Program-made: the position numbers and the translations under genes | Source: a virus | Taxonomy: Duplodnaviria; Heunggongvirae; Uroviricota; Caudoviricetes | Direction: 5' to 3' (one strand) | DNA: 64,000 nucleotides | IMG/VR virus record: IMGVR_UViG_3300001605_000009 | The notes under the pieces: model-generated | Told to the model about the DNA's origin: nothing | The model's database searches: none | What the model saw: the letters and a program-made list of their open reading frames with translations, nothing else | In this document: positions 25,004-64,000 of the stretch, one piece after another | Position numbering within the stretch: the stretch's first letter is position 1 | Layout: each line of letters opens with the position of its first letter

Positions 25004-25397
25004 GGTACTTTTCCTTATTATCAGAAGAGAAATAAATACGCTCTTCTTCTTCAGAGAGAGGTCTACTCATTGGAGTATTCTTCTCGTCCCTCCAACACAG
25101 ATGGTTGGTATTCTCAAAAGGTATAAGCCAAGGTGTCATTAATTTCTCCGTGTAAGTGCGGCGGGTTCTGTTTCTAGGTTCCGCCAGACCCAAGAAGAAT
25201 CAAGCTACTAGAGCTAGACCTTCAAATGCTGAGTTATCGTTAGCATTTACTTTTTGTGGCTCTTTGCCAGTCAATAGTCTCGGCGTTCCCTATTACACGA
25301 AAATCGATCCCTGGTCGCCCCCATCATAGAATATCGGACTGTGTAGGTACCAATACACGAGACACTGATAAACGGTCAGGCTCTTCCCAATATTCTA

Positions 25398-25425
25398 TGG
25401 TGGAGGCGGCGGGAATTGAACCCGC
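25398..25425 (-). ncRNA. tRNA/tmRNA 3'-end-like element (T-arm, acceptor 3' strand and CCA) with no matching 5' half
   Basis: The minus strand reads GACGCGGG-TTCAATT-CCCGCCGCCTCCACCA. This matches the 3' end of bacterial tmRNA and tRNA closely. No complementary GGAGGCG was found within plausible distance. Confidence 0.4.
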
Positions 25426-25454
25426 GTCTTTTCGTCTTTATTGTCGGCTGTCAG

Positions 25455-25497
25455 CGACTATATACTCGTTATAACAAAAGTTACAACAAAAGTCAAG
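25455..25497 (-). promoter_or_regulatory. sigma70 promoter (TTGACT, 17-nt spacer, TATAAC) firing into the tRNA/tmRNA-like fragment
   Basis: The minus strand reads aaaaatatttcTTGACTtttgttgtaacttttgtTATAAC, about 45 nt upstream of the fragment. Confidence 0.5.
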
Positions 25498-25732
25498 AAA
25501 TATTTTTCAAGCGTTCGGCCTTAGCACGAAGATGCTCAGCTGGGGACATTCCGTAGTCCTGATGGTTAACAGAAATATTCGCTAGTACAAATCCAAGGTC
25601 TTTTCGCTCCTGATAGAACTGCTCACGCATCTTTCGCTTACGCTCTAGCTTCTGCTCACGAGTTTCTAGATTTGGGAAGTTGACTTGTCCGTTGGACTTT
25701 TGCTTCTGTACGACCTGTTCTGCTTCCTGCAC
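25493..25732 (-). CDS. hypothetical basic protein
   Basis: ORF with the promoter at 25830-25870 upstream. Confidence 0.4.
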   Translation of the reverse strand: MQEAEQVVQKQKSNGQVNFPNLETREQKLERKRKMREQFYQERKDLGFVLANISVNHQDYGMSPAEHLRAKAERLKNIS

Positions 25733-31955: not shown

Positions 31956-32282
31956 GAAAATTCCTTAAAATAGAACGATGATTAGGATAACTGCGAATAT
32001 CGTTGCAGTTAGTGAGTACATTATAGGATAAAATAAAGGCTTTGTCAAGTCCCAATCTAGGGAAGGTATGATTTTAATCCCAAAGAAGACTAGACAAAAT
32101 ACAAACAAAAATCCAAGTATAATCTTACCCATTAGTGAATAGTATGCGCAATGAGATACTCCTCCTCAACAAACCAAGTAACCAGTGTTTTCATTTCTGA
32201 GTCATCAAAATCCATATACGACTGGATAAAGCTAAGATCCTCTCCTTCTAGTAGAAGACTAAGAGCGTCCAGCTTTTCTTCT

Positions 32283-32606
32283 TCATCCACCATTGCCAAG
32301 AAGCTCCATTAGTGCGGGATCGAAATAGACATGACCCTTAGTACGTTCCTTACTAGGATCGGCCTTCGCTACTACAGTAACGTGAGAACTAAACTCCTTT
32401 CCTCGAAGCCTTTCGATAAGACTAGTGGTGTACTCAACCATGTCTTGGTTGTATACAATCCAGAAAATATGTTTAGTTGGGTTAGCTGGAAGGCCAAGAA
32501 TGGCTTGTTCCCGTTTTACGTAAGAAGTCACTGCTTTCTCCTTGTTATGCCTCATTATACTGAATTGACACGAAGATGTCAACACTGAAATTAGAGTATC
32601 TTGCAA
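32283..32606 (-). CDS. hypothetical protein
   Basis: ORF only. Confidence 0.3.
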   Translation of the reverse strand: MQDTLISVLTSSCQFSIMRHNKEKAVTSYVKREQAILGLPANPTKHIFWIVYNQDMVEYTTSLIERLRGKEFSSHVTVVAKADPSKERTKGHVYFDPALMELLGNGG

Positions 32607-40080: not shown

Positions 40081-40578
40081 TCATAGAAACTTCACAGCTA
40101 GTGCTGTGGCGTCCCACCAGGCGTTATGCTGTACCGCCTCAGTTAGTAATGTAGGGTAACAATCAATGTTCTCTACTGTGAACTTAATCTGCCTGTATCC
40201 AGTAGACTCCCACCCACCGTCTGGTCCAGTTGAGAGAGCCTTACAGAAACGGTAAATATCTACAGGGCTGTCTGCGACGATTTCGAAATCTACATCAGGT
40301 AGAAAGGCTCTCAGTACGGCACCCACATCATTTGTGTTGACATTGATGACCTTCGACGCAAGATGAGAATCTAATACAGGAATTACGTTTCCTGCTACCC
40401 ACGGGTCACACACTAAAGCATCGGCCACTTTGATATAAATGCTATCATGAATATTTACTAGAGCCATACTGATTAGATCACCGTCGTGGCCATCAAATTC
40501 ACAATCAAGGTAATATTTCATATATGTCTGCTTCCTTATATAGAGATTTCCAGTATTCAGCCTCGTACTCGGTATCAA
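40081..40578 (-). CDS. small DEDDh-type 3'-5' exonuclease
   Basis: Exo I motif YYLDCEFDG and Exo III motif HNAWWDA. Confidence 0.5.
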   Translation of the reverse strand: MIPSTRLNTGNLYIRKQTYMKYYLDCEFDGHDGDLISMALVNIHDSIYIKVADALVCDPWVAGNVIPVLDSHLASKVINVNTNDVGAVLRAFLPDVDFEIVADSPVDIYRFCKALSTGPDGGWESTGYRQIKFTVENIDCYPTLLTEAVQHNAWWDATALAVKFL

Positions 40579-40647
40579 ATGTCATAGGCCTAAGATCGTC
40601 TAGAGGGCCTTCCATCAAAGGAAGACCCTCTACAATAATTCCATACT

Positions 40648-41193
40648 TCATGCTAGCTTATATACCGTATTTCGTGTAATAAGACGAGTACCTTCAATAC
40701 CCTTAACCTCTGAAGTCGTAATCTTATCTCCATCACGGAAACGATTCTTTGAATCTCCGTAGATTTCTCCGGTTACTACAGTGCAATCGTAATGGAAGCT
40801 TTTTACTAGGTGCCAATTACGAAGCTCAGCATCATAAGGAGCTTCTTTTACTTCTACTACTTTCATTGGTTCTTTCTCCGATCTTTCTAGGTGACTGTGC
40901 ATAGCGGCTCCGCAGAAGAACCTATCACCTTCATTGAATTTAACATCATTAAGATAAAACGGTTTTAGTGTAATATCTCCATTTGAGCTCACTCTACAGG
41001 TAGAGATATAACCCTTCTTCTCTAGATACATACGTAGACGAGCGAAGCTAGGGTGATCTACTGATCCGTGTGAGGACCAGCTTCCACCCACTTCAGATTG
41101 TTCGCAGTTGATAGCATCAACCACCGCACATAGGTACTTTGGATCAATACGCATACGTAGGGTATACAGCTCTAGTGACGGTTGAAAGCTCAT
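40648..41193 (-). CDS. hypothetical protein
   Basis: ORF only. Confidence 0.35.
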   Translation of the reverse strand: MSFQPSLELYTLRMRIDPKYLCAVVDAINCEQSEVGGSWSSHGSVDHPSFARLRMYLEKKGYISTCRVSSNGDITLKPFYLNDVKFNEGDRFFCGAAMHSHLERSEKEPMKVVEVKEAPYDAELRNWHLVKSFHYDCTVVTGEIYGDSKNRFRDGDKITTSEVKGIEGTRLITRNTVYKLA

Positions 41194-41498
41194 TTGTACT
41201 GCTCACTCTGTAGTGAGAAATCCTCTTCAAAGGAACCACCTCCAGCCCGGAGGCCTTCATGTTCTTCTGAGTCATATTCTTCCCACCAGTACTCTAGATC
41301 ATCTGAGGTGACTTCGTTATCATACTCATTAGAGTAATCATCCACTAAATCCCAGCCGTACATTTGGGCATTTTCCACCGACGCCTCGTAGCAATATTCG
41401 GTAATCTTGTCATCTGAAGTATCATTTGACACTAGAAGTGCCTCTGCAAAATCAGTTCCTACAGTTTTAGCTGATCCTCGAAGAATAATCTTACGCAT
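41190..41498 (-). CDS. hypothetical acidic protein
   Basis: ORF only. Confidence 0.35.
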   Translation of the reverse strand: MRKIILRGSAKTVGTDFAEALLVSNDTSDDKITEYCYEASVENAQMYGWDLVDDYSNEYDNEVTSDDLEYWWEEYDSEEHEGLRAGGGSFEEDFSLQSEQYK

Positions 41499-51697: not shown

Positions 51698-52388
51698 TAG
51701 CCTTTCGTTTTCCTAATATGTCTAAAATTACAGAGATAAATCCCTCATTAGAGGAATCTATATGGTGACTCACGTGTCTATGCTCTCCACCAGTTAAAAT
51801 ACCAAATACTAATCCTCTATTGATAGCACCACTATCGTCGTGATTAAAGGTAGACCACGACAAGGTTACCAGAGCGCAAGCTGCTGGAACCAGCCACAGA
51901 AATAGAAGGGCCTTCAAAGAAATTAGTAGTAACAATACTGGTAAGCACACTAGTATCCAGTAGTGACGCTGAAAGAACATAACTCTAGGATTCTTACTTA
52001 ACCTAGCAATTGTTCGATAGTCTCCCTTATCTTTATCTACCCAAAAGAGTGGAAAAGCGGCTCTCCAACCTATGTATTTTGGAGAGTGAGGATCACGATT
52101 CGTGTCTACGTATTTATGGTGATTAATGTGTATAGAGGCTGCCTCTAGTGGAGTTGACATACTACCATAGAACCCAAAAGCTAGACATATAAATTCTATA
52201 GCTGGGTGAAACTTGTGTGTTTGATGGGTTATTACTCTATGATAAGTAGCTGTATACCCAACACACCTAAATAGAAAAAATACTAGAATAGATACTAGTG
52301 CCCAACCTAGGGTTATAAAGTATAAAGACGCTAAGGCTAGTATAGGCAGCGTTATCTGCAATATAAACAGAAATAGAGCCTTATTCAT
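51681..52388 (-). CDS. membrane di-iron His-box enzyme (fatty acid desaturase or hydroxylase family)
   Basis: Three histidine boxes (HRVITHQTH, HINHHKY and HRHVSHH) and multiple transmembrane segments. Confidence 0.5.
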   Translation of the reverse strand: MNKALFLFILQITLPILALASLYFITLGWALVSILVFFLFRCVGYTATYHRVITHQTHKFHPAIEFICLAFGFYGSMSTPLEAASIHINHHKYVDTNRDPHSPKYIGWRAAFPLFWVDKDKGDYRTIARLSKNPRVMFFQRHYWILVCLPVLLLLISLKALLFLWLVPAACALVTLSWSTFNHDDSGAINRGLVFGILTGGEHRHVSHHIDSSNEGFISVILDILGKRKAIDEYK

Positions 52389-52926
52389 AGAGGCCTCTAC
52401 TTCTCAACATATCAAATATCCACTGCTTGTTATCTCTCCAGAATCTAGCAGAGCGTAGACCCTCAGTAGAAGCTACATATCGTTTATCTCGTGTTTCAAA
52501 GTATTCCATAGTATTAAACTCGCACCCTACATGCATCCAGCCATTATCTAGAGCTGTAATTGGGTACTCTATTCCATCAATAATAAGTGGAGGGGAGTTG
52601 ATGATGGTTCCCTTCCAATGCACATTTTCAAAGTTTGTGCCAGTAAAGTCTACGGTACTAAGGAGAGTATCATCCATAGTACAGGAGTCTAGCACACAGT
52701 TTTTGAACTGAGAGCGGAAAATATAAGCATTACTAAACTCACATAGGGTGAAGCTACAGTTAGTGAACTTTGTGCCAGTGATATAGGCATTTAGGTCACA
52801 CCCATGAAATGTACAATTAGAGAACTCCGCCCCGTACATATCAGCATTCTTGAGAGTACAGTTAGAGAAGACTACACCAGTATAGTCTTCATAGCGCATG
52901 TTTTTAAAGGTATGATTCTCAATCAC
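52381..52926 (-). CDS. pentapeptide-repeat protein
   Basis: Tandem A(D/N)LxX-type repeats (FSNCTLKNADMYGAEFSNCTFHGCDLNAYITGTKFTNCSFTLCEFSNAYIFRSQFKNCVLDSCT). Confidence 0.7.
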   Translation of the reverse strand: MIENHTFKNMRYEDYTGVVFSNCTLKNADMYGAEFSNCTFHGCDLNAYITGTKFTNCSFTLCEFSNAYIFRSQFKNCVLDSCTMDDTLLSTVDFTGTNFENVHWKGTIINSPPLIIDGIEYPITALDNGWMHVGCEFNTMEYFETRDKRYVASTEGLRSARFWRDNKQWIFDMLRSRGLYE

Positions 52927-55419: not shown

Positions 55420-55461
55420 TGAAAAATAATTCTTGACATTGCAACTGTTTTTTGTTATATT
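55420..55461 (+). promoter_or_regulatory. sigma70 promoter (TTGACA, 17-nt spacer, TATATT) with flanking ATTGCAA direct and inverted repeats
   Basis: aaaaataattcTTGACAttgcaactgttttttgtTATATT. The ATTGCAA repeats may be an operator. The leftward partner promoter (TTGACA, 17-nt spacer, TATATT) at about 55376-55405 drives the small membrane genes. Confidence 0.55.
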
Positions 55462-55500
55462 TTTTATATTGCAAAAGCGTTGCAAAGTCAGAGGAAATCA

Positions 55501-55818
55501 ATGGAAGAAAAACTAGACAAAATTATATCACTACTAGAGGAGTTAGTTTATAACTCTAAACACTATAACGGATATGTTAAATGGTCCTACGAACAGGAAG
55601 AATTTCTAGATATTATGTTTACAGCAGGGCACGATGTTCCAGAATTAATAAAGCTCATTAAAGAAAAATTTGGTATTGATAGATCAGCCGGGGCCATATG
55701 CTCTAGACTAAGTAAGCTTGGACTAAATAAGCCTATTGAAAAGAAACGAGTCATTGAAAAGAAAGAGTCTACTACTATAGAAGATATTTTTGACCTACTA
55801 CCGTGGGAAGTAGAATGA
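55501..55818 (+). CDS. helix-turn-helix protein (plus-strand member of the paralog family)
   Basis: The ATG at 55501 has a ribosome-binding site upstream. Motif IKEKFGIDRSAGAICSRLSKLGL. Confidence 0.5.
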   Translation: MEEKLDKIISLLEELVYNSKHYNGYVKWSYEQEEFLDIMFTAGHDVPELIKLIKEKFGIDRSAGAICSRLSKLGLNKPIEKKRVIEKKESTTIEDIFDLLPWEVE

Positions 55819-56324
55819 GCGTAGATAATATTAGAAACAATCCGCGATGGACCGCAGAAGAAGAAGAGAAACTGTGTAGGGCTGTATCCGCTTACTCGGA
55901 TTGGGACGAAGTCCCATACGCTAGTATTCAGGACAAATACTTCCCACACCGATCTGTGTCAGCTCTGCAAGCTAAGTATCTTCGTACTAAAGATAAATAT
56001 TCCTTCTATCAGTGGAGTGATAACGCATCTAAAAATGTGTTCAGAATGTACCTGGATGGGGCCTCCATCGGTCAAATTCACACTAAGATGATAGAAGTGG
56101 GACTAACTGGAGCGAGCCCACGAGATATTGAGCTAGAGATAGAAAGGCTTCGAGGGATTCTCTCTAGTAAGGTTAGGACTTATGCCGAAGAGCATGGACT
56201 TAGGCCAACTAAGAGATATTCGCTGGAACAGCTCCAAGCTTTCGCCAAATTCAAAGCTCCCGAGGGCAACTCCTTCGCAGCTAAAGCCGCTATTGCAGCG
56301 CTTCATGAGATTATTAATGGCTAG
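55803..56324 (+). CDS. Myb/SANT-like helix-turn-helix repeat protein
   Basis: WTAEEEEKL and a helix-turn-helix motif of the paralog-family type. Confidence 0.45.
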   Translation: MGSRMSVDNIRNNPRWTAEEEEKLCRAVSAYSDWDEVPYASIQDKYFPHRSVSALQAKYLRTKDKYSFYQWSDNASKNVFRMYLDGASIGQIHTKMIEVGLTGASPRDIELEIERLRGILSSKVRTYAEEHGLRPTKRYSLEQLQAFAKFKAPEGNSFAAKAAIAALHEIING

Positions 56325-56637
56325 AGGCTGGACACCACAAGAGGATGAATTACTACTTAGACTTCGAGACGAAGGTCTCACAGCTAGGGAGATTGCTCTT
56401 AGACTAGAGCGCAGTGCTGGAGCAATCAGAATGAGAGCTTCACTACTAGCTGAGGACAAGCAGAAACGCTGGACTGAAGCTGATAAGCAGCTAGTATTTC
56501 AACTTAAATCTGAAGGACATACTAACAAGTTTATTGCTATAAAACTGGGCAGAACAGCATCTTCAATTAGTACGTTTGTCTCTCGCAACTGGCATGTTGA
56601 ACAGGCTTCAACCGATGCTAGGAAAAATAATTCTTGA
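56317..56637 (+). CDS. Myb/SANT-like helix-turn-helix repeat protein (start set to the ATG at 56317)
   Basis: Motifs WTPQEDELLLRL, IALRLERSAGAIRMRASLL and IAIKLGRTASSISTFVSRNW. Confidence 0.45.
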   Translation: MARGWTPQEDELLLRLRDEGLTAREIALRLERSAGAIRMRASLLAEDKQKRWTEADKQLVFQLKSEGHTNKFIAIKLGRTASSISTFVSRNWHVEQASTDARKNNS

Positions 56638-56663
56638 CATTTGATATCGCATATGGTATCATA
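56622..56663 (+). promoter_or_regulatory. sigma70 promoter (TTGACA, 17-nt spacer, TATCAT) firing into a 500-bp ORF-free region
   Basis: aaaaataattcTTGACAtttgatatcgcatatggTATCAT. It overlaps the stop of the preceding gene. Confidence 0.5.
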
Positions 56664-57112
56664 CAAACTATGTTAAGTTAGATTGCTTTATATTTACTTT
56701 TATTCTGTTATTGACCTGATCGCGACGGTCCGAGCGTCTCGGATCCGTCGCGTATTCAGGGAGACTCAATACAGACTTTATATCGTGTCTAACTTGTTTT
56801 GCTACAGCCCTTAACGGGCTGGAATTGCGTTTAAAATCCGCTACAAAAATTATGGCTATTTTAAGCTCTTTCTACAAGGCTGTATCGGCTTTTTGATAAC
56901 TTTCTCTTCATTCATCATAAACTTGATCCAACCTAACTCTAGCCGCTCGCTTTAGCCTCGATTCAGCCTGCTGTAGCTCGTTAAAATGTCGTTAGTTGCG
57001 CACGAAGTGCGCTGGATTTAGCTTCAGGCACCAGCTCAACCAAAATAATTTTTTGGCGCTTTTGCTTGGGTGCCAACACAAAAAAGGCCGTACCAAACTG
57101 GCACAGCCTCAT

Positions 57113-57154
57113 AAAAACCGAAAAAAGCGGGTCTAACTTTCGTTAGGCCCGCTT
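57113..57154 (-). terminator. rho-independent terminator (bidirectional, stronger on the minus strand)
   Basis: AAGCGGGTCTAAC-TTTCG-TTAGGCCCGCTT with a T6 tract on the minus strand. Confidence 0.65.
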
Positions 57155-57161
57155 AAGTTGT

Positions 57162-57380
57162 TTAATCTGCAAAAATCTCGTAAGAAAGCTCAAAATCTGC
57201 GTCAAGCACCATCTCACCTACTAGCAGTTCCTCGTCCTCGGAGAGGACTAGCACGATGTCAAAAAATCCAGCAGCACTGTGCACAACCTGGATCGCCTCG
57301 CGATCATACTCTAGGAAAAGGTCTGGAATAGCTTGCGCATACTGCGTCAAGATCGTCTCAATATCGTCGCGAATGTTCAT
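57162..57380 (-). CDS. small acidic protein
   Basis: A 72-residue Asp/Glu-rich ORF. Confidence 0.4.
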   Translation of the reverse strand: MNIRDDIETILTQYAQAIPDLFLEYDREAIQVVHSAAGFFDIVLVLSEDEELLVGEMVLDADFELSYEIFAD

Positions 57381-57575
57381 TGCTTATCTCCGTTGCTTGA
57401 AACTCATTCTAGCCGTTTTAGTGCGCGAAGTCAACATGAAAAAAATAGTTCTTGACACCAGTTTGCACCTGGTTGGCGAACGAAGTTCGCAAGCTTGGTA
57501 AAAATAGTTCTTGACACAAGCATGGCCTAAAATAGATGTTGACTTCGCACTAGCCGGCGCAGGATTTTTGGCGCT

Positions 57576-57620
57576 ACAAAAATAACCGCCACACCTTTGC
57601 AGGGGGCGGTTATTTTTCGT
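57576..57620 (-). terminator. bidirectional rho-independent terminator
   Basis: ATAACCGCC-loop-GGCGGTTAT with T-tracts on both strands. Confidence 0.6.
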
Positions 57621-57768
57621 ACTAGCCGATCCAACGGCAGGCTCTGTTCATTCTAGACTGCGTAAAACAGGCACTGGGAGGGATCCGGTCGTGTACTGAT
57701 ACTAGGAGGGGTGAGGAGTGTCGTTGCTACTCAATGCCTCACCTTATTGTAGCGTTTCCTAGTATTGC

Positions 57769-58080
57769 TTAGGCACTCAGTTTCGAACGAAGTTCGACGA
57801 GTACCAACTTAGGAGCCTTCTCAAGACCATCGAGGCTGCGACCAACGAGGGCCGAAATCTCAGCTACAATGTCTTCCTTGCTCTCGATCTTACCGCCAGT
57901 CTTGCTGGTCTTGACCTTACCACGGTAGGAGCCGAGGCGGACTGCCTTAGCACGCACCGAGCGCACGTCCTTACCAAATTCAGCGGCGAGCATTTCTGCC
58001 GTAGCGTTGTCGATAACCTCGAATTCAGCGAGGCGGGCTTCTTGAGCGTCGGTGTAGTTCTTGATGATGGTCTTGGTCAT
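57769..58080 (-). CDS. helix-turn-helix paralog family member
   Basis: LAAEFGKDVRSVRAKAVRLGSYRGKVKTSKTGG aligns along its whole length with the ORF at 60752..61075. Confidence 0.55.
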   Translation of the reverse strand: MTKTIIKNYTDAQEARLAEFEVIDNATAEMLAAEFGKDVRSVRAKAVRLGSYRGKVKTSKTGGKIESKEDIVAEISALVGRSLDGLEKAPKLVLVELRSKLSA

Positions 58081-58148
58081 AAATGATCCTTTTCTTGGGT
58101 TGATTTAGTATTTATAGTTGGTTTGGGGTTGAATGTCAACTACTATTT

Positions 58149-58244
58149 TCAGAAGTCCTGGTACATGTCCCAGACGCGGCTGGTGTCGTAGTCGTCTTCG
58201 AGGGCGTCTTGGTCTTCAACGAAATCGTCTTGATACTGATCCAT
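58149..58244 (-). CDS. 31-residue highly acidic mini-protein (candidate DNA mimic or anti-restriction protein)
   Basis: MDQYQDDFVEDQDALEDDYDTSRVWDMYQDF, with the ribosome-binding site gaaggaagga upstream. It is not in the ORF track. Confidence 0.4.
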   Translation of the reverse strand: MDQYQDDFVEDQDALEDDYDTSRVWDMYQDF

Positions 58245-58278
58245 ATTTTGTTTCCTTCCTTCTCGCTCTTGATGTACT

Positions 58279-58310
58279 CTTATAACCGGAAAGCGGTCGG
58301 CGGTCAACAT
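58279..58310 (-). promoter_or_regulatory. sigma70 promoter (TTGACC, 17-nt spacer, TATAAG) carrying the conserved box CTCTTGATGTACTCTTATA
   Basis: The box recurs upstream (on the minus strand) of the genes at 59215..59940 and 60752..61075. Confidence 0.5.
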
Positions 58311-58339
58311 AAACTTTTAGCAGTGCTGGTCGGCTTTGG

Positions 58340-58380
58340 TTATTTTTTAACTTGACTTTGCATTGATTTGCCACTATAAT
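58340..58380 (+). promoter_or_regulatory. consensus sigma70 promoter (TTGACT, 17-nt spacer, TATAAT) firing into a 470-bp ORF-free segment
   Basis: ttaacTTGACTttgcattgatttgccacTATAATtttggcgctgcgcgcc. Confidence 0.6.
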
Positions 58381-58716
58381 TTTGGCGCTGCGCGCCTTAC
58401 CAGACCTTCTTCGAGGTCATTTTCAGCACACGTAAAAATTGAACTTGCACTAGGTCGTCGCGGCGCTAAGGGGCTCGTTATAAGTTGCTCCCGCACTCTT
58501 CCTAGCAGGTAACTTTCGCACTAGCATTGCTTTCGCACTGGCGCAGGAACGCTGTTCTCGTTTTGTTCTCGGTTTGTTCCATGTGATGATATATCGTTAC
58601 GCTCATTTAACATAACATGCTTTCCCTGATTTAAGCTGCCTAAGTCATTGATATTACTAGATAAAACCGTTTAACATAATGCATTTTATCAAACCCATAT
58701 TTATTTTTCCTAGCTC

Positions 58717-58745
58717 TTGACAAATGTGTTGAAACCTGTTAAAAT
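58717..58745 (+). promoter_or_regulatory. island plus-strand promoter cassette (TTGACA, 17-nt spacer, TAAAAT, then CGGCGC), copy 1
   Basis: cTTGACAaatgtgttgaaacctgtTAAAATcggcgc. A TG dinucleotide at -15/-14 gives an extended -10 element. Confidence 0.6.
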
Positions 58746-58932
58746 CGGCGCTAGGCCATTTTCGGCGCTGTCACATCCATTATAGCAGGTTTTAATGGGC
58801 TTGTCAATAGGAAAAATCGCCTGTGGATAAATATATTCTAGCGCGGCCTGACCGAACAAAACGGGAACAAAAATTTCGGCGCATTCAGCGCGCTATTTTC
58901 AGTATAGCATATGCCAAAAATGCTGTCAAGCG

Positions 58933-58973
58933 AAAAAAATGCTCCAGAACCAGTCTGGAGCATTTTCTTTTTC
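58933..58973 (-). terminator. bidirectional rho-independent terminator
   Basis: ATGCTCCAGA-ACCAGT-CTGGAGCAT flanked by an A6 tract and a T tract. Confidence 0.75.
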
Positions 58974-59175
58974 AGTCCTTCACTTCAACGTCGATAGTAA
59001 AGGATAGTTCGACTTCTTTATATAACTTGACGTTATAAACACTTACGCCATTTTTTACTTCCTCTTTAATGTCGTCTAGTATGTCTGCTAGTGACTCACT
59101 ATAGTAACTGCCAGTCACACCGCCAGTAATGCCCAAGATTTCAGCATAAAACATAATACTTAATCCTTTTTCCAA
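58972..59175 (-). CDS. hypothetical small protein
   Basis: ORF followed by a terminator. Confidence 0.4.
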   Translation of the reverse strand: MEKGLSIMFYAEILGITGGVTGSYYSESLADILDDIKEEVKNGVSVYNVKLYKEVELSFTIDVEVKD

Positions 59176-59214
59176 AGTTGGGGCAAGTAATCATTACTTG
59201 CCCCGTTTCTGTTT

Positions 59215-59940
59215 TTACTTGACCGTGAAGTGATCCCGAACGGCGAAGTCACGATAGTTGTATGGCGGCGGATTCATATAGTCAGACGGTGAAGTATTTT
59301 TGACTAATGCCGTAAGAATAGGCACCTCGTAATACTTGGCGTCTTCTAGTGCCGTATGTGGTTCGTCTGGCAATCCCGCGCCTAGCAGAAATTTTGCCAT
59401 AACATCGGCATTAGTTTGCACGCCCATATGCCCTGTTTTACTTGTGCGATTGCCGAAATAGTGATTCTGCAAAGCAAAGTTAAGAAAAGCGCGAGTATTG
59501 CCCCACTTAGCAGCGGCAGCGTGCCACAAACAAAATTGACTAGGGAACAAATCATTGGCAATAATGCCAGACTTGTTCATCTTATCACGGTCGAAAGCCA
59601 AGTTATAGGCTGTCATAACAGGCGAGTACTTAGCGGCAATCTTGCTAAGTACGCGATTAACAGCACCAACGCTTGCCAATACTCGCGTTCCGTCTTGTAG
59701 CATTTGCTCATAAGCGGCGTAGCGCGCGGGCAGGCTTTCCTTGCTGAAAACATCGCCCTTATCCCCGAAAACATGAAACAGAGGGTGCGCCTCTTTATCG
59801 CTGAAAAAGTCGCCAATTAGAATGCCCATCTCATAATGGATGTTTCCTTGCTTGTCGGAAACAACGATGCCCATATCCGCGACCATATTGGTTTGCGTTG
59901 TTTCCGTGTCAATTGTCAAGAAAAACTTTTTCTTACCCAT
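59215..59940 (-). CDS. DEDDh 3'-5' exonuclease (DnaQ/RNase T-like)
   Basis: Exo I FLTIDTETT, Exo II YNLAFDRD and Exo III HTALEDA motifs. Confidence 0.75.
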   Translation of the reverse strand: MGKKKFFLTIDTETTQTNMVADMGIVVSDKQGNIHYEMGILIGDFFSDKEAHPLFHVFGDKGDVFSKESLPARYAAYEQMLQDGTRVLASVGAVNRVLSKIAAKYSPVMTAYNLAFDRDKMNKSGIIANDLFPSQFCLWHAAAAKWGNTRAFLNFALQNHYFGNRTSKTGHMGVQTNADVMAKFLLGAGLPDEPHTALEDAKYYEVPILTALVKNTSPSDYMNPPPYNYRDFAVRDHFTVK

Positions 59941-59998
59941 TTTTCGTTCCTTTGCCCTTTGGGTCTTTCAGGAGAGCCTTGCGCCCTCTTGATGCTCT

Positions 59999-60045
59999 CT
60001 TATACCTAGCGAATCGTTGCCCGTCAAGAAAAACTTTTCCACAAT
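59999..60045 (-). promoter_or_regulatory. sigma70 promoter (TTGACG, 17-nt spacer, TATAAG) with an upstream DnaA-box-like TTTTCCACA
   Basis: The minus strand reads TGTGGAAAAgtttttcTTGACGggcaacgattcgctaggTATAAG. Confidence 0.55.
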
Positions 60046-60061
60046 TTATTTATTTTTGCTC

Positions 60062-60090
60062 TTGACAGATTGATTGGACCCTGTTAAAAT
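60062..60090 (+). promoter_or_regulatory. island plus-strand promoter cassette, copy 2
   Basis: cTTGACAgattgattggaccctgtTAAAATcggcgcc, with a terminator hairpin starting about 10 nt downstream. Confidence 0.6.
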
Positions 60091-60098
60091 CGGCGCCA

Positions 60099-60131
60099 AT
60101 AAACCCTTGAAAAACAAGGGTTTATTTTGTT
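60099..60131 (+). terminator. rho-independent terminator
   Basis: AAACCCTTG-AAAAA-CAAGGGTTT followed by ATTTTGTT. Confidence 0.65.
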
Positions 60132-60136
60132 GGCTG

Positions 60137-60538
60137 CTATACTATCGGAAACACAAGTATTGCAAGCAATATAGAATTGAGAGCAAAGCCAATGCCATTA
60201 GAGACAATATAGAGCATATCCTTTTGATATACTGCTCGCCACAAGTAAAGCGCCAAGCCAACCCAAGTCAAGAGTACCATTGATAGTGGTGGCATAGTGG
60301 TGTTATATCCGGCAATTTTTCCGACCATAGTGGGAACAGTATTGCTATGCAGCATAACCATTGCAAGCCAGCCAGCAATTTCAGGGGCTGGCATATTGCG
60401 AATTTTTTGAAAAAACATTGACTTTTCCTTTTTCTTGGGAAAATTCCCATAAGCCGCGTCATGCAAACAAGCCGCCACTAGATCATTGCCTAGTGCCCGT
60501 TCCCGCTTGCTTGCCGCTAGAAGTTCGTTTTTCGTCAT
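60137..60538 (-). CDS. membrane protein with C-terminal transmembrane helices
   Basis: A 133-residue ORF with a hydrophobic C-terminal half. Confidence 0.45.
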   Translation of the reverse strand: MTKNELLAASKRERALGNDLVAACLHDAAYGNFPKKKEKSMFFQKIRNMPAPEIAGWLAMVMLHSNTVPTMVGKIAGYNTTMPPLSMVLLTWVGLALYLWRAVYQKDMLYIVSNGIGFALNSILLAILVFPIV

Positions 60539-60607
60539 GCCCTCTTATGGACTAGGCCAGCCGACCCGTCAAGAAAAACTTTTCCACAAATAAAAATAAA
60601 TAAGCTA

Positions 60608-60636
60608 TTGACAAACCCTAGCGCGTCTGCTAAAAT
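60608..60636 (+). promoter_or_regulatory. island plus-strand promoter cassette, copy 3
   Basis: aTTGACAaaccctagcgcgtctgcTAAAATcggcgcc. Confidence 0.55.
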
Positions 60637-60704
60637 CGGCGCCTCCAGCCGGATTTTTTGGCGCTAATACAATTATAACAGAATCAAAAGGCTTTGTCAA
60701 GCCC

Positions 60705-60742
60705 AAAAAACAAATAAAAAAAGTGGGGGATTTCTCCCCCAC
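60705..60742 (-). terminator. rho-independent terminator (minus strand only)
   Basis: GTGGGGGA-TTTC-TCCCCCAC followed on the minus strand by TTTTTTTATTTGTTTTTT. Confidence 0.75.
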
Positions 60743-60751
60743 CCTATTGAC

Positions 60752-61075
60752 TTATGCGGAAAGCCGTTCCCGAAGGATTTGCAAGGCCAGCTTAGGGGCC
60801 TTTTCCAGTCCGTCCATATTTTTCTGGACAAGTGCCGCAATGTCTGCAACAATGTCTTCCTTGGTTTCGACTGGGCCGCCAGTCTTGCTGGTCTTTTCCT
60901 TAGCCTTATAAATGCCCATGCGAGTTGCCTTAGCGCGAATTGAGCGAACGTCCTTGCCGAGCTTTTCGGCCAATTCGATTGCCTTATCATTGTCAATGAT
61001 GCCAGCGGCCAAGAGAACAGCCTCTTGTTCAGCCGAGTAGTTCTTGACGGTTTCGGTTTTTGCAGTAGCAGCCAT
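60752..61075 (-). CDS. helix-turn-helix paralog family member
   Basis: LAEKLGKDVRSIRAKATRMGIYKAKEKTSKTGG is co-linear with the ORF at 57769..58080. Confidence 0.55.
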   Translation of the reverse strand: MAATAKTETVKNYSAEQEAVLLAAGIIDNDKAIELAEKLGKDVRSIRAKATRMGIYKAKEKTSKTGGPVETKEDIVADIAALVQKNMDGLEKAPKLALQILRERLSA

Positions 61076-61208
61076 GAGAAAATTTCCTTTTTATCTCGAA
61101 GGGCCTATCCCCTCTTGATGTACTCTTATACCGCGCGTTTGCATGTCTGGCAAGAGAAAAATGCACGAAAGCCGAAAAAACTTTTCCACAGTACATTTAT
61201 TTTTGCTC

Positions 61209-61237
61209 TTGACAGGCTCTAGGAAACCTGCTAAAAT
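61209..61237 (+). promoter_or_regulatory. island plus-strand promoter cassette, copy 4
   Basis: cTTGACAggctctaggaaacctgcTAAAATttggcgcc. Confidence 0.55.
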
Positions 61238-61287
61238 TTGGCGCCAATAGGCCTTCAGAAATCTTTTCGCTTGACACGTTTTTTCGC

Positions 61288-61316
61288 TTGACACGGCTGG
61301 CGTTCCGTCCTATAGT
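61288..61316 (+). promoter_or_regulatory. additional plus-strand promoter (TTGACA, 17-nt spacer, TATAGT) inside a tandem 17-bp duplication
   Basis: The sequence cgcTTGACAcg occurs twice. The second copy is followed by a 17-nt spacer and TATAGT, and about 70 nt further on by a terminator. Confidence 0.5.
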
Positions 61317-61354
61317 GAGAGTAGCGGGCAAAATTTTCGGCGCCTTTGGCACAT

Positions 61355-61390
61355 TTAAAAGGTGGGAACAAGTCCCACCTTTTACTTAAT
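61355..61390 (-). terminator. bidirectional rho-independent terminator
   Basis: AAAAGGTGGGAACAAGTCCCACCTTTT. Confidence 0.7.
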
Positions 61391-61598
61391 GTGCTCTGTA
61401 ATCAAGTATAGATTGCAATTCGATTATTTCCCGCAATGTCCTTTGTTTCTCCATGTTTGCAGTATAAAGATCAACAATGATTGACGAAATCAGATCCTCT
61501 TGTAGTGCTAGTTTGTCCTCTGCACAGTCAAGCTGCAATTCTAGTGGTTCCTCGTTCATGCCGCTAACTTTCCGTTTTGCTTTACAGCGTTGAAACAA
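61386..61598 (-). CDS. hypothetical small protein
   Basis: ORF with a terminator at its end. Confidence 0.4.
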   Translation of the reverse strand: MFQRCKAKRKVSGMNEEPLELQLDCAEDKLALQEDLISSIIVDLYTANMEKQRTLREIIELQSILDYRAH

Positions 61599-62029
61599 GT
61601 AATACCGATTGAAAGCATTGCGTCAATTACTTTCAAGTTATCGTCAAACATAATTGCGCAAGCATCCTTTGCACAAGAAAAGCCTTCGCCCGCAAAGTAT
61701 GCTTCTAGCAGATCAACTTTCAATTGCGCGTCCCCGCGCATATCGTTAACGCCGCGCGACAAGAAAACATCATGTTCTAGTCCATGCTTTTCAAGGAACA
61801 AATGGTTGCTTTCATGTGGCGAACGCGCCGTGCAAATGATAACCGTATGGCCAGCCTTTTTAATCTGTTTCATGCTTTTTGCAAGTGGCAAAAGCGAGTC
61901 ACCCATAATTTTCTCATGGGTATTATTCTCCAGCCAGTGCGCAAGATTAAGCGAGCCATCGGGCAACGTGTTTTGACGGTGGCTTGAGTCGATAACCGTG
62001 CCATCCAAGTCGAAAATTACATAAGCCAT
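61556..62029 (-). CDS. HAD-superfamily 5'-nucleotidase (deoxyribonucleoside 5'-monophosphatase-like, comparable to T5 dmp)
   Basis: HAD motif I FDLDGTV at the N-terminus. The gene is small and located in a pre-early-like island. Confidence 0.65.
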   Translation of the reverse strand: MAYVIFDLDGTVIDSSHRQNTLPDGSLNLAHWLENNTHEKIMGDSLLPLAKSMKQIKKAGHTVIICTARSPHESNHLFLEKHGLEHDVFLSRGVNDMRGDAQLKVDLLEAYFAGEGFSCAKDACAIMFDDNLKVIDAMLSIGITCFNAVKQNGKLAA

Positions 62030-62122
62030 TTTGCTAGTCCTTGCTGTCTTGATGCCCCATTATTGCCAGAAAAGCGGCATAGCGTCAAGAAGTTTTTATC
62101 CACAATTAAAAATAATTTGCTA

Positions 62123-62151
62123 TTGACAACCTATAAAAATCCTGCTAAAAT
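62123..62151 (+). promoter_or_regulatory. island plus-strand promoter cassette, copy 5, with a perfect DnaA box 20 nt upstream
   Basis: aTTGACAacctataaaaatcctgcTAAAATcggcgct. TTATCCACA is at 62096-62104. Confidence 0.55.
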
Positions 62152-62160
62152 CGGCGCTAA

Positions 62161-62197
62161 TTAAGCCTTTGAAAACAAAGGCTTAATTGCTTGTTTA
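62161..62197 (+). terminator. rho-independent terminator
   Basis: TTAAGCCTTTG-AAAAC-AAAGGCTTAA followed by TTGCTTGTTT. Confidence 0.6.
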
Positions 62198-62635
62198 ATC
62201 TATGGGGCAAGAGGACTGGCAGCTCTTGCTTGCCCACCAAACCGTTTCCGGTCTTGACAGCCGATTAAAAGTGCGAATGTCAAGTAAAATTGGCTCTCCC
62301 GAATGTTCGCTAGTCGCCAGCTTTTCCACCTTGTCAAGCCAGCGATTAGAGTATTCTGCGTCAGCTAATATGTATTCAATTGGGCAGCCGTCAAACATAT
62401 CGTATTTGAATGTTTTAGAGAATGCAATAACGCTAGAGCGATCAAAAGAAAAGCGCGCCTTTGGTGGGTTTACTAGCCCAAACCAACGCCTAGTGCTAGA
62501 ACGCTTTTCTTCTGATTTGACCCAGCTATTGACTTGTTTGTCAGTTTCTACAGTGACTTGATGCACAATTTCAAGGCGGCAATCCTCTACCATTGCCAGA
62601 AGTGAAGCCTTAGTGACTGGAACAAAACCCTTCAT
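62195..62635 (-). CDS. hypothetical protein
   Basis: ORF only. Confidence 0.4.
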   Translation of the reverse strand: MKGFVPVTKASLLAMVEDCRLEIVHQVTVETDKQVNSWVKSEEKRSSTRRWFGLVNPPKARFSFDRSSVIAFSKTFKYDMFDGCPIEYILADAEYSNRWLDKVEKLATSEHSGEPILLDIRTFNRLSRPETVWWASKSCQSSCPID

Positions 62636-62835
62636 GCATAATTCCTTTGAATAAAGCGATCACCAAAACGATCAAGAGCGAGAATCTGCCAATCATCACT
62701 TTCATAGTCGATATCTATATCGTAGTCAAGCGGTTCTGCAACAAAAAACAGATCACAATCCCATGCTTCCGTGCTAGCATTATCTGCTAAGTGCCAGTCA
62801 AGAGGTTCGTTCATTGCTTCATTCCTTGTTTCCAT
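62632..62835 (-). CDS. small acidic protein
   Basis: A 67-residue Asp/Glu-rich ORF containing DYDIDIDYESDDW. Confidence 0.4.
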   Translation of the reverse strand: METRNEAMNEPLDWHLADNASTEAWDCDLFFVAEPLDYDIDIDYESDDWQILALDRFGDRFIQRNYA

Positions 62836-62882
62836 GAATCCACCTTAGACAATAAAAAACGCCTGTCAAGAAATCTTTTCTC

Positions 62883-62910
62883 TTGACAAAATAAAATAAC
62901 CTGCTAAAAT
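62883..62910 (+). promoter_or_regulatory. island plus-strand promoter cassette, copy 6 (16-nt spacer)
   Basis: cTTGACAaaataaaataacctgcTAAAATcggcgc. Confidence 0.5.
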
Positions 62911-62975
62911 CGGCGCATCTGAGCCAAAAAATTCGGCGCTACTACCATTATAGCATGAAGCTAAATTGTTGTCAA

Positions 62976-63009
62976 ATAAAAAATAAGGCCTGAAGGCCTT
63001 ATTTTTTAG
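62976..63009 (-). terminator. bidirectional rho-independent terminator
   Basis: AATAAGGCC-TGAA-GGCCTTATT flanked by an A6 tract and a T6 tract. Confidence 0.7.
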
Positions 63010-63194
63010 TTCTCCACAACTCTAGCGGCCTTATATTGGGCCGCTTTCATGAAACGCTTAGCCTTATCCAAGGCGTCGCGGGCCTCGCCAGCAGTGTCAA
63101 AATATTGTGCCCGTTCGATCCTTCCAGCAAAGGTCCATACCGTGCCGCGCAGGTAGCAGATGCCTTGTGGTGTGGTCAGTTGAACAGTGAACAT
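63006..63194 (-). CDS. hypothetical small protein
   Basis: ORF only. Confidence 0.35.
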   Translation of the reverse strand: MFTVQLTTPQGICYLRGTVWTFAGRIERAQYFDTAGEARDALDKAKRFMKAAQYKAARVVEN

Positions 63195-63282
63195 TGCTTA
63201 TCTCCTTGCTGATGAATTAACCCTAGGCCATAGCAGTCCCAATGTCTAGCAGTATTTATCCACAAGCAAATTTTATTTGCTC

Positions 63283-63310
63283 TTGACAAACTATAGAAAA
63301 CCTGTCAAAA
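63283..63310 (+). promoter_or_regulatory. island plus-strand promoter cassette, copy 7 (-10 hexamer CAAAAT), with a perfect DnaA box at 63256-63264
   Basis: cTTGACAaactatagaaaacctgtCAAAATcggcgcc, with a hairpin immediately downstream. Confidence 0.45.
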
Positions 63311-63347
63311 TCGGCGCCAATGGGAGGCTTTGCAGCCTCCCATTTTG

Positions 63348-63551
63348 TCAACCATAATTCTGCCAATTCACAATATCGGCCAATGCTTGTTCTGCCGTTG
63401 GCTTTTCATCATAATGCTTGACAAAATCCTCGTCAGTGCCTTCAAAGATTAGATGGTTTCTTCGAGGCAACCAAAAGGCGGCTTGATCCTTTTCGCCACC
63501 ATACCAAGAAACCATTAGATCATTGTGCACCCATTCAGCAGTTGTTTTCAT
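63348..63551 (-). CDS. hypothetical small protein
   Basis: ORF only. Confidence 0.35.
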   Translation of the reverse strand: MKTTAEWVHNDLMVSWYGGEKDQAAFWLPRRNHLIFEGTDEDFVKHYDEKPTAEQALADIVNWQNYG

Positions 63552-63754
63552 CGGCTAGACTCCAATCCAAAGGCTTCGAGGCCTTCATCACCATATTCGC
63601 TTTCTACCGCTTCTGCAAGCATTTCTTCTGGAGTATAGTCGGCTTCCCAGAAATCATAGTAATTCTGGTCAGGCCAGCAATCCGTTGGCATTCCCACGGT
63701 TTCGATCATAAGAGCGTCAACCCGTGCCATCCAAGTCTTGAAAGAAACTGCCAT
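63548..63754 (-). CDS. small acidic protein
   Basis: A 68-residue acidic ORF overlapping the downstream gene by 4 nt. Confidence 0.4.
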   Translation of the reverse strand: MAVSFKTWMARVDALMIETVGMPTDCWPDQNYYDFWEADYTPEEMLAEAVESEYGDEGLEAFGLESSR

Positions 63755-63832
63755 TTGTTATCTCCTCGTTACAAGAACAACCTAGGCCCTAGCTTATCCC
63801 TAGTCAATCCCTAAAATAAAAAACTTTTGCTA

Positions 63833-63861
63833 TTGACAGGTTGAATTGAACCTGCTAAAAT
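63833..63861 (+). promoter_or_regulatory. island plus-strand promoter cassette, copy 8
   Basis: aTTGACAggttgaattgaacctgcTAAAATtggcgcc followed by the hairpin TAGGGCTTTGG-TTTC-CCAAAGCCCTA. Confidence 0.55.
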
Positions 63862-63900
63862 TGGCGCCAATAGGGCTTTGGTTTCCCAAAGCCCTATGTG

Positions 63901-64000
63901 TCAAGGGATTATTTCAAAAGATTCGCCATGATCGTGAAAATATTCTTCTCCACCCATTTCATAGAAGTATTCTTCTATCGTCTCTTTATCAGTAAGGCTA
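63901..64000 (-). CDS. hypothetical acidic protein, C-terminal part only (gene starts beyond the right edge of the window)
   Basis: In-frame minus-strand ORF ending ...EEYFYEMGGEEYFHDHGESFEIIP with its stop at 63901. Confidence 0.35.
   Translation of the reverse strand, partial: SLTDKETIEEYFYEMGGEEYFHDHGESFEIIP

What the first reader, a model, noticed from the sequence alone, without database searches (positions are those of the whole stretch)
57162..63754. A cluster of tiny, highly acidic proteins in the island: candidate DNA mimics and anti-restriction factors
There are at least four Asp/Glu-rich mini-proteins: the 31-residue MDQYQDDFVEDQDALEDDYD... at 58149-58244 (not in the ORF track; it has a strong ribosome-binding site), and the ORFs at 57162-57380, 62632-62835 and 63548-63754. 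They are embedded among a 5'-nucleotidase, a DEDDh exonuclease and helix-turn-helix proteins in a promoter-dense region. The layout resembles first-injected, pre-early regions that protect incoming DNA. Ocr-like and ArdA-like DNA mimics have a similar composition.
Basis: inference. Interest (0 to 1): 0.55.

Follow-up and report, generated by a model that had tools for sequence, protein, structure and literature searches.

The report
Small acidic early proteins, T5-like phage
An uncultured relative of phage T5 carries, in the block of genes it probably expresses first, several unrelated tiny and strongly acidic proteins that are real, conserved genes and reasonable candidates for inhibitors of host DNA-binding proteins, but none belongs to a known anti-restriction family and their function is untested.

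Summary
All four ORFs exist at the stated coordinates, with net charges of -11 to -16, 24-39% Asp+Glu, and Shine-Dalgarno sites. A (57162-57380), C (62632-62835) and D (63548-63754) are real genes. Each has homologues in related metagenomic phages, evolves under purifying selection (pN/pS 0.16-0.32), and keeps its acidity across the family. B (31 aa) is probable but thinly supported.

The setting is a distant T5-like phage. The genes sit in a promoter-dense block with a T5-type dNMPase and two A2-like DNA-binding proteins, between the terminase and the early replication genes. This resembles T5's pre-early region, but no A1 homologue was found and a terminal repeat could not be tested.

Strongly acidic small genes are enriched here: 4 of 14 versus 3 of 91 elsewhere in the window. 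Two more lie just upstream.

Verdict: sensible candidates of an ordinary kind. A conserved set of antisense promoter-hairpin modules in the same block is the odder feature.

The parts
57162..57380 (-). Gene A: 72 aa, net charge -16. Founder of a small family of stand-alone acidic alpha+beta proteins.
   Evidence: ORF and charge. It has 28 close homologues and 24 clusters at 50% identity among 1.8 billion representatives. pN/pS is 0.24 against L016. AF2 gives pLDDT 83.8 with a helix plus a four-stranded sheet. Acidity is conserved across the family, median net charge -17, and D20, D41 and E51 are always acidic.
57406..57434 (-). Promoter-like site TTGACT-17-TAGAAT directly upstream of A.
58149..58244 (-). 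Gene B: 31 aa, net charge -11. A probable gene.
   Evidence: Strong SD sequence GAAGGAAGGA. Called as a gene in six assemblies. The protein is identical in L016, with 2 synonymous and 0 non-synonymous DNA differences. No other homologue was found.
58264..58313 (-). Conserved 50-nt upstream element (TTGACC-17-TATAAG-AGTACATCAAGAGCG), shared with the regions upstream of the exonuclease gene and gene I. It lies inside the longer 53-aa reading of B, which favours the 31-aa start.
   Evidence: Repeat family D5 and sequence reading. The G at position -7 makes sigma-70 use uncertain.
62632..62835 (-). Gene C: 67 aa, net charge -14, with a conserved 45-aa core (AWDCDLF...DWQILALDRFGDR). Its stop overlaps the start of J (ATGA).
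   Evidence: pN/pS is 0.32. Homologues occur in other gene contexts, L019 and L023.
62947..62975 (-). Perfect sigma-70 consensus promoter (TTGACA-17-TG-TATAAT) upstream of C.
63548..63754 (-). Gene D: 68 aa, net charge -13. A three-helix protein, a distant relative of DUF5419 / phrog_519. Its stop overlaps the start of E.
   Evidence: pN/pS is 0.16. AF2 gives pLDDT 90.4.
63901..64000 (-). 3' part of a fifth acidic gene (53 aa, net -11), cut by the window end. A sixth (88 aa, net -19) lies beyond the window.
   Evidence: Gene calls on the source contig and their translations; sequence at the window end.
61556..62029 (-). T5-type deoxynucleoside-5'-monophosphatase (dmp homologue).
   Evidence: 40% identical to the dmp gene of Vibrio phage phi3, which lies in that phage's left terminal repeat. 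PF26880 and PF25109. phrog_415.
59215..59940 (-). 241-aa protein with DnaQ-like DEDDh motifs. Conserved (59-97% identity) in all related loci.
   Evidence: Motifs read from the translation. No Pfam match; phrog_20187, unknown function. Relatives.
57769..58080 (-). Gene H: an A2-like / D5-like DNA-binding protein and paralogue of I.
   Evidence: phrog_323 and phrog_1725. Weak tblastn/blastp matches to phi3 A2, E 0.03-0.04. DNA repeat D3 shared with I.
60752..61075 (-). Gene I: an A2-like DNA-binding protein and paralogue of H.
   Evidence: E 1.5e-4 to phi3 A2, 0.014 to T5 A2.
58717..63867 (+). Eight copies of an antisense promoter module, TTGACA-N13/14-TGnTAAAAT-(C/T)GGCGC. Starts at 58717, 60062, 60608, 61209, 62123, 62883, 63283 and 63833, all in intergenic gaps of the minus-strand array.
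   Evidence: None elsewhere in the window. Present in relatives L016, L008 and L010.
55480..56637 (+). Convergent operon of three regulators (unassigned 112 aa; Myb-like; HTH_38 / sigma-70 region 4-like, D5-like) that closes the array.

Best explanation
The four ORFs, plus two more just upstream, are genuine genes from unrelated families. They encode small, folded, strongly acidic proteins. They lie in a roughly 7-kb block transcribed by host RNA polymerase in an uncultured T5-like phage. In position and partial content this block corresponds to T5's pre-early (first-expressed) region.

Most likely they are stoichiometric inhibitors made immediately after DNA entry. They would bind the positively charged nucleic-acid-binding surfaces of host proteins, such as restriction or other defence nucleases, RecBCD, nucleoid proteins like HU or H-NS, Ung, or RNA polymerase. 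That is electrostatic or DNA mimicry in the broad sense. Each probably has a different target.

Shown: gene reality, conservation, conserved acidity, folds of A and D, promoter context, and local enrichment. Inferred: early timing, the binding mode, and any anti-defence role.
For: - Real genes under purifying selection: pN/pS is 0.24 for A, 0.32 for C and 0.16 for D against L016. B has 2 synonymous and 0 non-synonymous changes.
- Families exist in related phages.
- Acidity is conserved, not incidental. Median net charge per residue is -0.21 (A), -0.21 (C) and -0.18 (D) across family members, and specific acidic positions in A are invariant.
- A and D are predicted to be compact folded domains, with pLDDT 83.8 and 90.4.
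- Context: a T5-type dNMPase; two A2-like proteins; consensus sigma-70 promoters directly upstream of A and C, and promoter density twice that expected.
- Strongly acidic small genes are enriched in the block.
- 6-bp palindromes are at the low extreme of the window.
- C and D homologues recur in other arrays of tiny phage genes, and D's relatives sit among right-arm genes of cluster-A mycobacteriophages. This is the behaviour of mobile accessory genes.
- In T5 the pre-early region is where restriction insensitivity and RecBCD protection are thought to reside (PMC10644984), and Dmp itself is described as an anti-defence factor (PMC12345140).
Against: - None of the four matches any Pfam or PHROG anti-restriction family, or any PDB sequence, singly or as a profile.
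- A's structural matches are generic for a helix plus a four-stranded meander. VirB8, cystatins and NTF2-like proteins score equally. Nothing is significant in the viral structure library, where Ugi ranks 39th with E 0.65. The hhalign probability against Ugi is 2%.
- Equally acidic small genes occur elsewhere in the genome, so charge alone discriminates poorly.
- No A1 homologue was found in the window or in the 10 kb beyond it.
- Membership of the block in a terminal repeat, and early timing, are unproven.
Confidence: 0.4

Rival explanations
1. These are ordinary acidic early 'accessory' proteins with assorted host-takeover or unknown roles that have nothing to do with DNA mimicry or restriction. 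Examples would be binding metabolic, membrane or translation factors. The shared acidity reflects a general compositional tendency of small early phage proteins.
For: The four families are mutually unrelated. There is no link to any known mimic family. Similar acidic small genes occur in the early region at 32132-32293, 40505-40615 and 41190-41498. In T5, thirteen of 17 pre-early genes are dispensable in the laboratory and most have unknown functions (bioRxiv 10.64898/2026.04.02.716235).
Against: The local enrichment is significant. Acidic positions are conserved within the families. The genes sit next to known DNA-directed functions.
Confidence: 0.35
2. These are partners or modulators of the phage's own proteins. 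For example, they could be anti-repressor-like mimics that release the A2-like or HTH DNA-binding proteins from DNA. Or they could be inhibitor or chaperone subunits of the co-translated neighbours (C with J, D with E).
For: The stop codons of C and D overlap the starts of J and E (ATGA). C and J co-occur in the window, L016 and L017, and are both absent from L008 and L010. A always follows an A2-like or HTH gene and faces the regulator operon.
Against: C is followed by other genes in L019 and L023. D is not followed by E in L008. No interaction evidence exists.
Confidence: 0.15
3. B, and only B, is not a gene. It is a short acidic ORF that happens to lie in a conserved leader between a promoter-like element and gene H.
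For: It is only 31 aa. Its single homologue is in a very close relative (exonuclease protein 97% identical). Only two informative substitutions are available. It is absent from L017, L008 and L010.
Against: It has an excellent SD sequence and spacing and its own conserved upstream element. Both DNA differences from L016 are synonymous third-position changes. Gene finders called it in six assemblies.
Confidence: 0.3

Closest known systems
Ocr (T7 gp0.3, Pfam PF08684)
   Same: A small, very acidic protein (similar charge per residue, from my own knowledge) encoded in the first-expressed part of a virulent phage genome. It is a DNA mimic that blocks type I R-M and BREX.
ArdA (Pfam PF07275)
   Same: An acidic anti-restriction DNA mimic expressed early by an incoming mobile element.
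   Different: ArdA is about 165 aa with three domains. No sequence or fold match was found here.
HI1450 / YciU (PDB 1NNV), putative dsDNA mimic that binds HU
Ugi (PBS2 uracil-DNA glycosylase inhibitor)
   Same: A phage-encoded, 84-aa acidic protein with helices packed on an antiparallel sheet; a DNA mimic.
DUF5419 (PF17441) / phrog_519
   Same: D matches phrog_519 (E 4e-9) and weakly matches DUF5419. A close homologue of D carries the Pfam assignment. D is 31-39% identical to genes near the right end of cluster-A mycobacteriophages.
   Different: D scores 18.2 bits against a gathering score of 31.8. The family has no known function, so membership says nothing about mechanism.
Pre-early (first-step-transfer) region of T5 and other Demerecviridae
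   Same: It has a dNMPase and A2-like DNA-binding proteins. Many small genes of unknown function are driven by strong sigma-70 promoters. It lies next to the early replication and tRNA region, and repeats with DnaA-box-like sequences are present.
   Different: No A1 homologue was found. The genes are transcribed in one direction towards convergent regulators, rather than as two divergent units. Terminal-repeat status is unknown. None of the acidic proteins is homologous to any T5 or phi3 pre-early protein.

Membership tests
Ocr (PF08684) | Sequence membership of the family | tested here: not met
   hmmscan of A-D against Pfam at E<=1 gave no Ocr hit. phmmer and profile searches of PDB sequences, which include Ocr, gave nothing.
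Ocr (PF08684) | All-helical elongated dimer whose surface carboxylates imitate bent B-DNA | tested here: not met
ArdA (PF07275) | Sequence membership and three-domain fold of about 165 aa | tested here: not met
   No Pfam or PDB hit. The proteins are 31-72 aa.
Ugi-type uracil-DNA glycosylase inhibitors | Ugi fold (two helices on a five-stranded antiparallel sheet) with an acidic edge strand that docks into Ung | tested here: inconclusive
HI1450/YciU dsDNA-mimic family (DUF440) | Sequence membership | tested here: not met
   No Pfam hit at E<=1. No PDB sequence hit with the A profile.
HI1450/YciU dsDNA-mimic family (DUF440) | Fold similarity | tested here: inconclusive
DNA-mimic proteins (functional class) | Small size and strong net negative charge | tested here: met
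   Net charge is -11 to -16 over 31-72 aa and is conserved in the families.
DNA-mimic proteins (functional class) | Surface carboxylates arranged like DNA phosphates, and competitive binding to a DNA-binding protein | not testable with these tools
No binding assay is possible.
DUF5419 (PF17441), for D only | Score above the Pfam gathering threshold | tested here: inconclusive
   D scores 18.2 bits against a cut-off of 31.8, E 0.0026. However, close homologues P0002 and an L023 gene carry PF17441, phrog_519 matches at E 4e-9, and tblastn to mycobacteriophage genes gives E 3e-4.
T5-type pre-early (FST) region | Contains dmp (dNMPase) | tested here: met
T5-type pre-early (FST) region | Contains A1 (reported conserved in all Demerecviridae) | tested here: not met
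   tblastn of T5 and phi3 A1 against the window, L012 and related loci gave no hit at E<=0.01. The rest of the 106-kb contig could not be fetched.
T5-type pre-early (FST) region | Contains the A2 DNA-binding protein | tested here: inconclusive
   H and I match phi3 A2 (E 1.5e-4 for I) and T5 A2 (E 0.014), plus phrog_1725 and phrog_323. The similarity is weak.
T5-type pre-early (FST) region | Lies in a long terminal direct repeat that is injected first | not testable with these tools
   Only one assembled copy is visible, between the small terminase and the early genes. No read coverage or genome termini are available.
T5-type pre-early (FST) region | Transcribed from strong host sigma-70 promoters | tested here: met
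   33 sites against 16.1 +/- 3.6 expected, and three perfect consensus promoters on the gene strand. These are consensus matches only; no transcription data exist.

The most novel reading that the evidence does not exclude
The A family is a new phage-borne DNA mimic of the HI1450/Ugi structural type that disarms a host DNA-binding defence or nucleoid protein. It would sit within a pre-early-like block that works without A1. The gene cassettes of that block are each bracketed by conserved antisense promoter-hairpin modules carrying a GGCGCC operator-like palindrome, which would be a previously undescribed way of organising or insulating immediate-early transcription on incoming phage DNA.
Probability: 0.12. 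Interest if true: 0.6.

Novelty: new member of a known kind. Interest (0 to 1): 0.35.

Why it matters
DNA mimics and other small anti-defence proteins cannot be found by homology, so each validated one opens a new host target or tool. T5-like phages are notably insensitive to restriction, and the gene or genes responsible are still unidentified. A conserved set of acidic immediate-early proteins in a divergent T5-like lineage is a short, testable candidate list. A is the best supported: it has a stable family, a confident fold, and invariant acidic positions. If none has such activity, the finding is simply another set of hypothetical early phage proteins.

Tried and rejected
- Megablast of the region against phage and plasmid collections found no match.
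- tblastn of A and C against 50,697 phage genomes found no match.
- Further homologues of B could not be found. The protein is too short for the search for related loci. A degenerate DNA pattern hit only a chance match, L018.
- The three testable families (A, C, D) show no relation to each other by hhalign, with probabilities below 1%.
- None of the window proteins A-D is homologous to any T5 or phi3 pre-early protein.
- Sequence-level kinship of A with Ugi is not significant.
- The idea that the 470-nt gap at 58300-58775 is a structured RNA was rejected. Its folding z-score is +1.67 and Rfam gave nothing credible.
- Small + strand ORFs downstream of the antisense promoters are unlikely to be genes. 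Their conservation only mirrors the genes or DNA on the other strand.
- C as an obligate partner of J is weakened by L019 and L023.
- The afdb50 fold library was unavailable.
- The ends of the 106-kb source contig could not be fetched, so neither A1 elsewhere nor a terminal repeat could be checked.


Full report
**What the window is.** The window is the reverse complement of part of a 106,419-bp metagenomic contig (ENA ERZ27315062 k141_509581). The same phage was assembled in five other runs. It has no close relative among 50,697 deposited phage genomes or among PLSDB plasmids.

Its gene content is that of a distant T5-like phage:
- family A DNA polymerase, DnaB-like helicase, primase, NAD-dependent ligase, two RNA ligases, and NAMPT and NMNAT-NUDIX enzymes;
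- 15-16 tRNA genes and a tmRNA;
- a T5-type small terminase just beyond the window end;
- a dNMPase at 61556-62029 that carries PF26880 (Phage_T5_dNMPase) and is 40% identical to dmp of Vibrio phage phi3, where the gene lies in the left terminal repeat.

**The observation.** All four ORFs are on the minus strand at the stated coordinates.

| Gene | Coordinates | Length | Net charge |
|---|---|---|---|
| A | 57162-57380 | 72 aa | -16 |
| B | 58149-58244 | 31 aa | -11 |
| C | 62632-62835 | 67 aa | -14 |
| D | 63548-63754 | 68 aa | -13 |

Asp+Glu make up 24-39% of the residues, and each gene has a Shine-Dalgarno sequence. All four were called as genes in independent assemblies.

They belong to an array of minus-strand genes: D, E, F, C, J, dNMPase, K, I, a membrane protein, the DEDDh-like protein, G, B, H and A. 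Three convergent plus-strand regulators (Myb-like and HTH/sigma-70-region-4-like) close the array at 55480-56637.

Two further strongly acidic genes lie directly upstream of D. One is 53 aa with net charge -11 and is cut by the window end at 63901-64000. The other is 88 aa with net charge -19 and lies beyond the window.

At a threshold of net charge per residue <= -0.19, the array holds 4 of 14 such genes within the window, against 3 of 91 crudely called genes elsewhere (p=0.006). With the contig's own gene calls it holds 6 of 16 against 0 of 27 in the flanks (p=0.0013). The cluster is therefore real and not a chance effect. Highly acidic small genes are not unique to it, however.

**Are they genes?**
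- A has 28 close homologues (63-100% identity). A profile search of 1.84 billion representative proteins found 24 clusters, all stand-alone proteins of 62-124 aa except one marginal 160-aa hit, with P19, E51 and G55 invariant.
- C has six homologues that share a 45-aa core.
- D has five close homologues plus one in an IMG/VR relative.
- Against the related contig L016 (exonuclease protein 97% identical), pN/pS is 0.24 for A, 0.32 for C and 0.16 for D. The exonuclease gives 0.03 and the dNMPase 0.14. This indicates purifying selection that is more relaxed than on the enzymes.
- B is identical in protein in L016, with two synonymous DNA differences. It has its own conserved upstream element. It is absent from the more distant relatives, and no other homologue was found. 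B is therefore probable, not proven.
- Acidity is conserved in every family, and particular acidic positions of A (D20, D41, E51) are acidic in all 22 diverse members.
- The A, C and D families are unrelated to one another.

**What are they?** None of the four matches an anti-restriction or DNA-mimic family in Pfam or PHROGs. None matches any PDB sequence, singly or as a profile. None matches a T5 or phi3 pre-early protein.

D matches phrog_519 (E 4e-9) and weakly matches DUF5419. It is 31-39% identical to genes of unknown function near the right end of cluster-A mycobacteriophages.

AlphaFold2 models:
- A: N-terminal helix packed on a four-stranded antiparallel meander, pLDDT 83.8.
- D: a three-helix unit, pLDDT 90.4.

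**Is this a pre-early region?**

In favour:
- the dNMPase, which is the homologue of a T5 pre-early gene;
- two paralogous proteins, H and I, that weakly resemble the pre-early DNA-binding protein A2 (E 1.5e-4 to phi3 A2; phrog_1725 and phrog_323);
- a position between the packaging genes and the early replication and tRNA genes, where a collapsed terminal repeat would assemble;
- twice the expected number of sigma-70-like promoters, including perfect consensus promoters on the gene strand at 62975, 60700 and 58807 and a good one upstream of A;
- the lowest count of 6-bp palindromes of any equal-sized stretch of the window (73 against 92.4 +/- 8.4), which is weakly consistent with DNA that enters unprotected.

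Against, or open:
- A1 is essential in T5 and reported as conserved in all Demerecviridae (bioRxiv 10.64898/2026.04.02.716235). It has no detectable homologue in the window or in the next 10 kb.
- The rest of the contig could not be fetched.
- Terminal-repeat status and timing cannot be tested here.

**Mechanism.** The best-supported reading is that these are immediately expressed small inhibitors. Their conserved negative surfaces would engage the nucleic-acid-binding sites of host proteins, with a different target for each family. This fits several findings:
- their conserved acidity and compact folds;
- their rapid turnover between related phages. L008 has a different 92-aa protein of net charge -22 at a neighbouring position. 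C and D homologues recur in unrelated arrays of tiny genes;
- the literature on T5-like phages, whose pre-early region is credited with protection against restriction and RecBCD without the genes being known (PMC10644984).

This remains an inference. I put it at about 0.4, and the chance that at least one of them is specifically an anti-restriction DNA mimic is lower still.

The main rival is that they are acidic accessory proteins with unrelated roles (0.35). A third option is that they modulate the phage's own DNA-binding or co-translated partner proteins (0.15). The overlapping stop and start codons of C-J and D-E, and A's fixed position next to DNA-binding genes, suggest this option. The absence of J after C in L019 and L023 weakens it.

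**A side observation.** The motif TTGACA-N13/14-TGnTAAAAT-(C/T)GGCGC occurs eight times in the 64-kb window. All copies are on the plus strand, antisense to the genes, and all lie in intergenic gaps between 58717 and 63867.
- The GGCGCC-centred palindrome (TTGGCGCCAA in the best copies) overlaps the predicted transcription start.
- A DnaA-box-like TTATCCACA or TTTTCCACA lies upstream.
- Three copies face perfect gene-strand promoters, with predicted start sites only about 20 bp apart.
- Four others are followed within a few bases by the hairpin that lies just after the stop of the upstream gene.
- The arrangement is kept in L016. In the more distant L010 (exonuclease 59% identical) it is kept with entirely different hairpin sequences, so it is likely to be functional.

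What it does is unexplained. Possibilities include insulation of the cassettes, RNA polymerase capture, or regulation by the A2-like proteins.

**Verdict.** The proteins are new, uncharacterised families of a familiar kind: small acidic early phage proteins. They are reasonable but unproven anti-defence candidates. Interest is modest.

Noticed in passing
window 58717-63867 (+ strand), eight sites starting at 58717, 60062, 60608, 61209, 62123, 62883, 63283 and 63833: A conserved antisense promoter module, TTGACA-N13/14-TGnTAAAAT-(C/T)GGCGC, with a GGCGCC-centred palindrome at the predicted start and a DnaA-box-like TTATCCACA upstream. It is found only in the intergenic gaps of this gene array. 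Three copies face perfect gene-strand promoters about 20 bp away. Four run straight into the hairpin that follows the upstream gene. The arrangement is kept in relatives L016 and L010, in L010 with different hairpin sequences. Its function is unexplained.
   Followed up: partly
window 58264-58313, 59984-60033, 61110-61159 (- strand): A conserved 50-nt element, TTGAC(C/G)-17-TATAAG-AGnnCATCAAGAG(G/C)G, lies upstream of B, the DEDDh-like gene and the A2-like gene I. The G at position -7 is unusual for a sigma-70 promoter, so this may be a differently recognised promoter or a shared 5' leader.
   Followed up: partly
window 25157-25500 (-): A phage-encoded permuted (two-piece) tmRNA of the alphaproteobacterial type, with tag ANDNSAFEGLALVA, sits among the tRNA genes (ARAGORN; Rfam RF04321 at 90.8 bits and RF01849 at 79.7 bits). 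It hints at an alphaproteobacterial host.
   Followed up: no
window 52381-52926 (-): A 181-aa pentapeptide-repeat protein (Pfam Pentapeptide_4, E 4e-14). The MfpA/Qnr type of this fold is itself a known DNA-mimicking architecture, and the gene is conserved in relatives.
   Followed up: no
window 11626-18600 (-): A 2,324-aa ORF in the tRNA region with no Pfam match at E<=1e-5.
   Followed up: no
window 63901-64000 (-) and beyond; L012 3063-3480: Two more strongly acidic genes lie directly upstream of D: 53 aa with net charge -11, and 88 aa with net charge -19. By eye, the 88-aa protein resembles the acidic 102-aa product of window 41190-41498 (both begin M(K/R)(V/K)II(R/L)RG...VGTD and contain EEYD..EH).
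   Followed up: partly
window 57101-64000: 6-bp palindromes are at the low extreme of the window (73 against 92.4 +/- 8.4 in equal-sized stretches). GGCGCC is the exception, occurring 6 times here against once in the other 55 kb.
   Followed up: yes
window and L012 (whole array plus the 10 kb beyond the window end): No homologue of the T5 A1 gene was detected, although A1 is reported as conserved in all Demerecviridae (bioRxiv 10.64898/2026.04.02.716235). The remaining ~40 kb of the contig could not be examined.
   Followed up: partly
L008 9503-9781: A related IMG/VR phage carries a different 92-aa protein of net charge -22 between the membrane-protein gene and the DEDDh-like gene. This shows turnover of acidic genes at neighbouring positions.
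   Followed up: no
window 57440-57459, 57499-57518, 55421-55440, 56622-56641 (+): A repeated motif, (G/A/T)AAAAATA(A/G)TTCTTGACA. Two copies form promoters for or after the regulator operon. Two copies lie just upstream of A's promoter on the opposite strand without a -10 element, so they may be operator sites.
   Followed up: no
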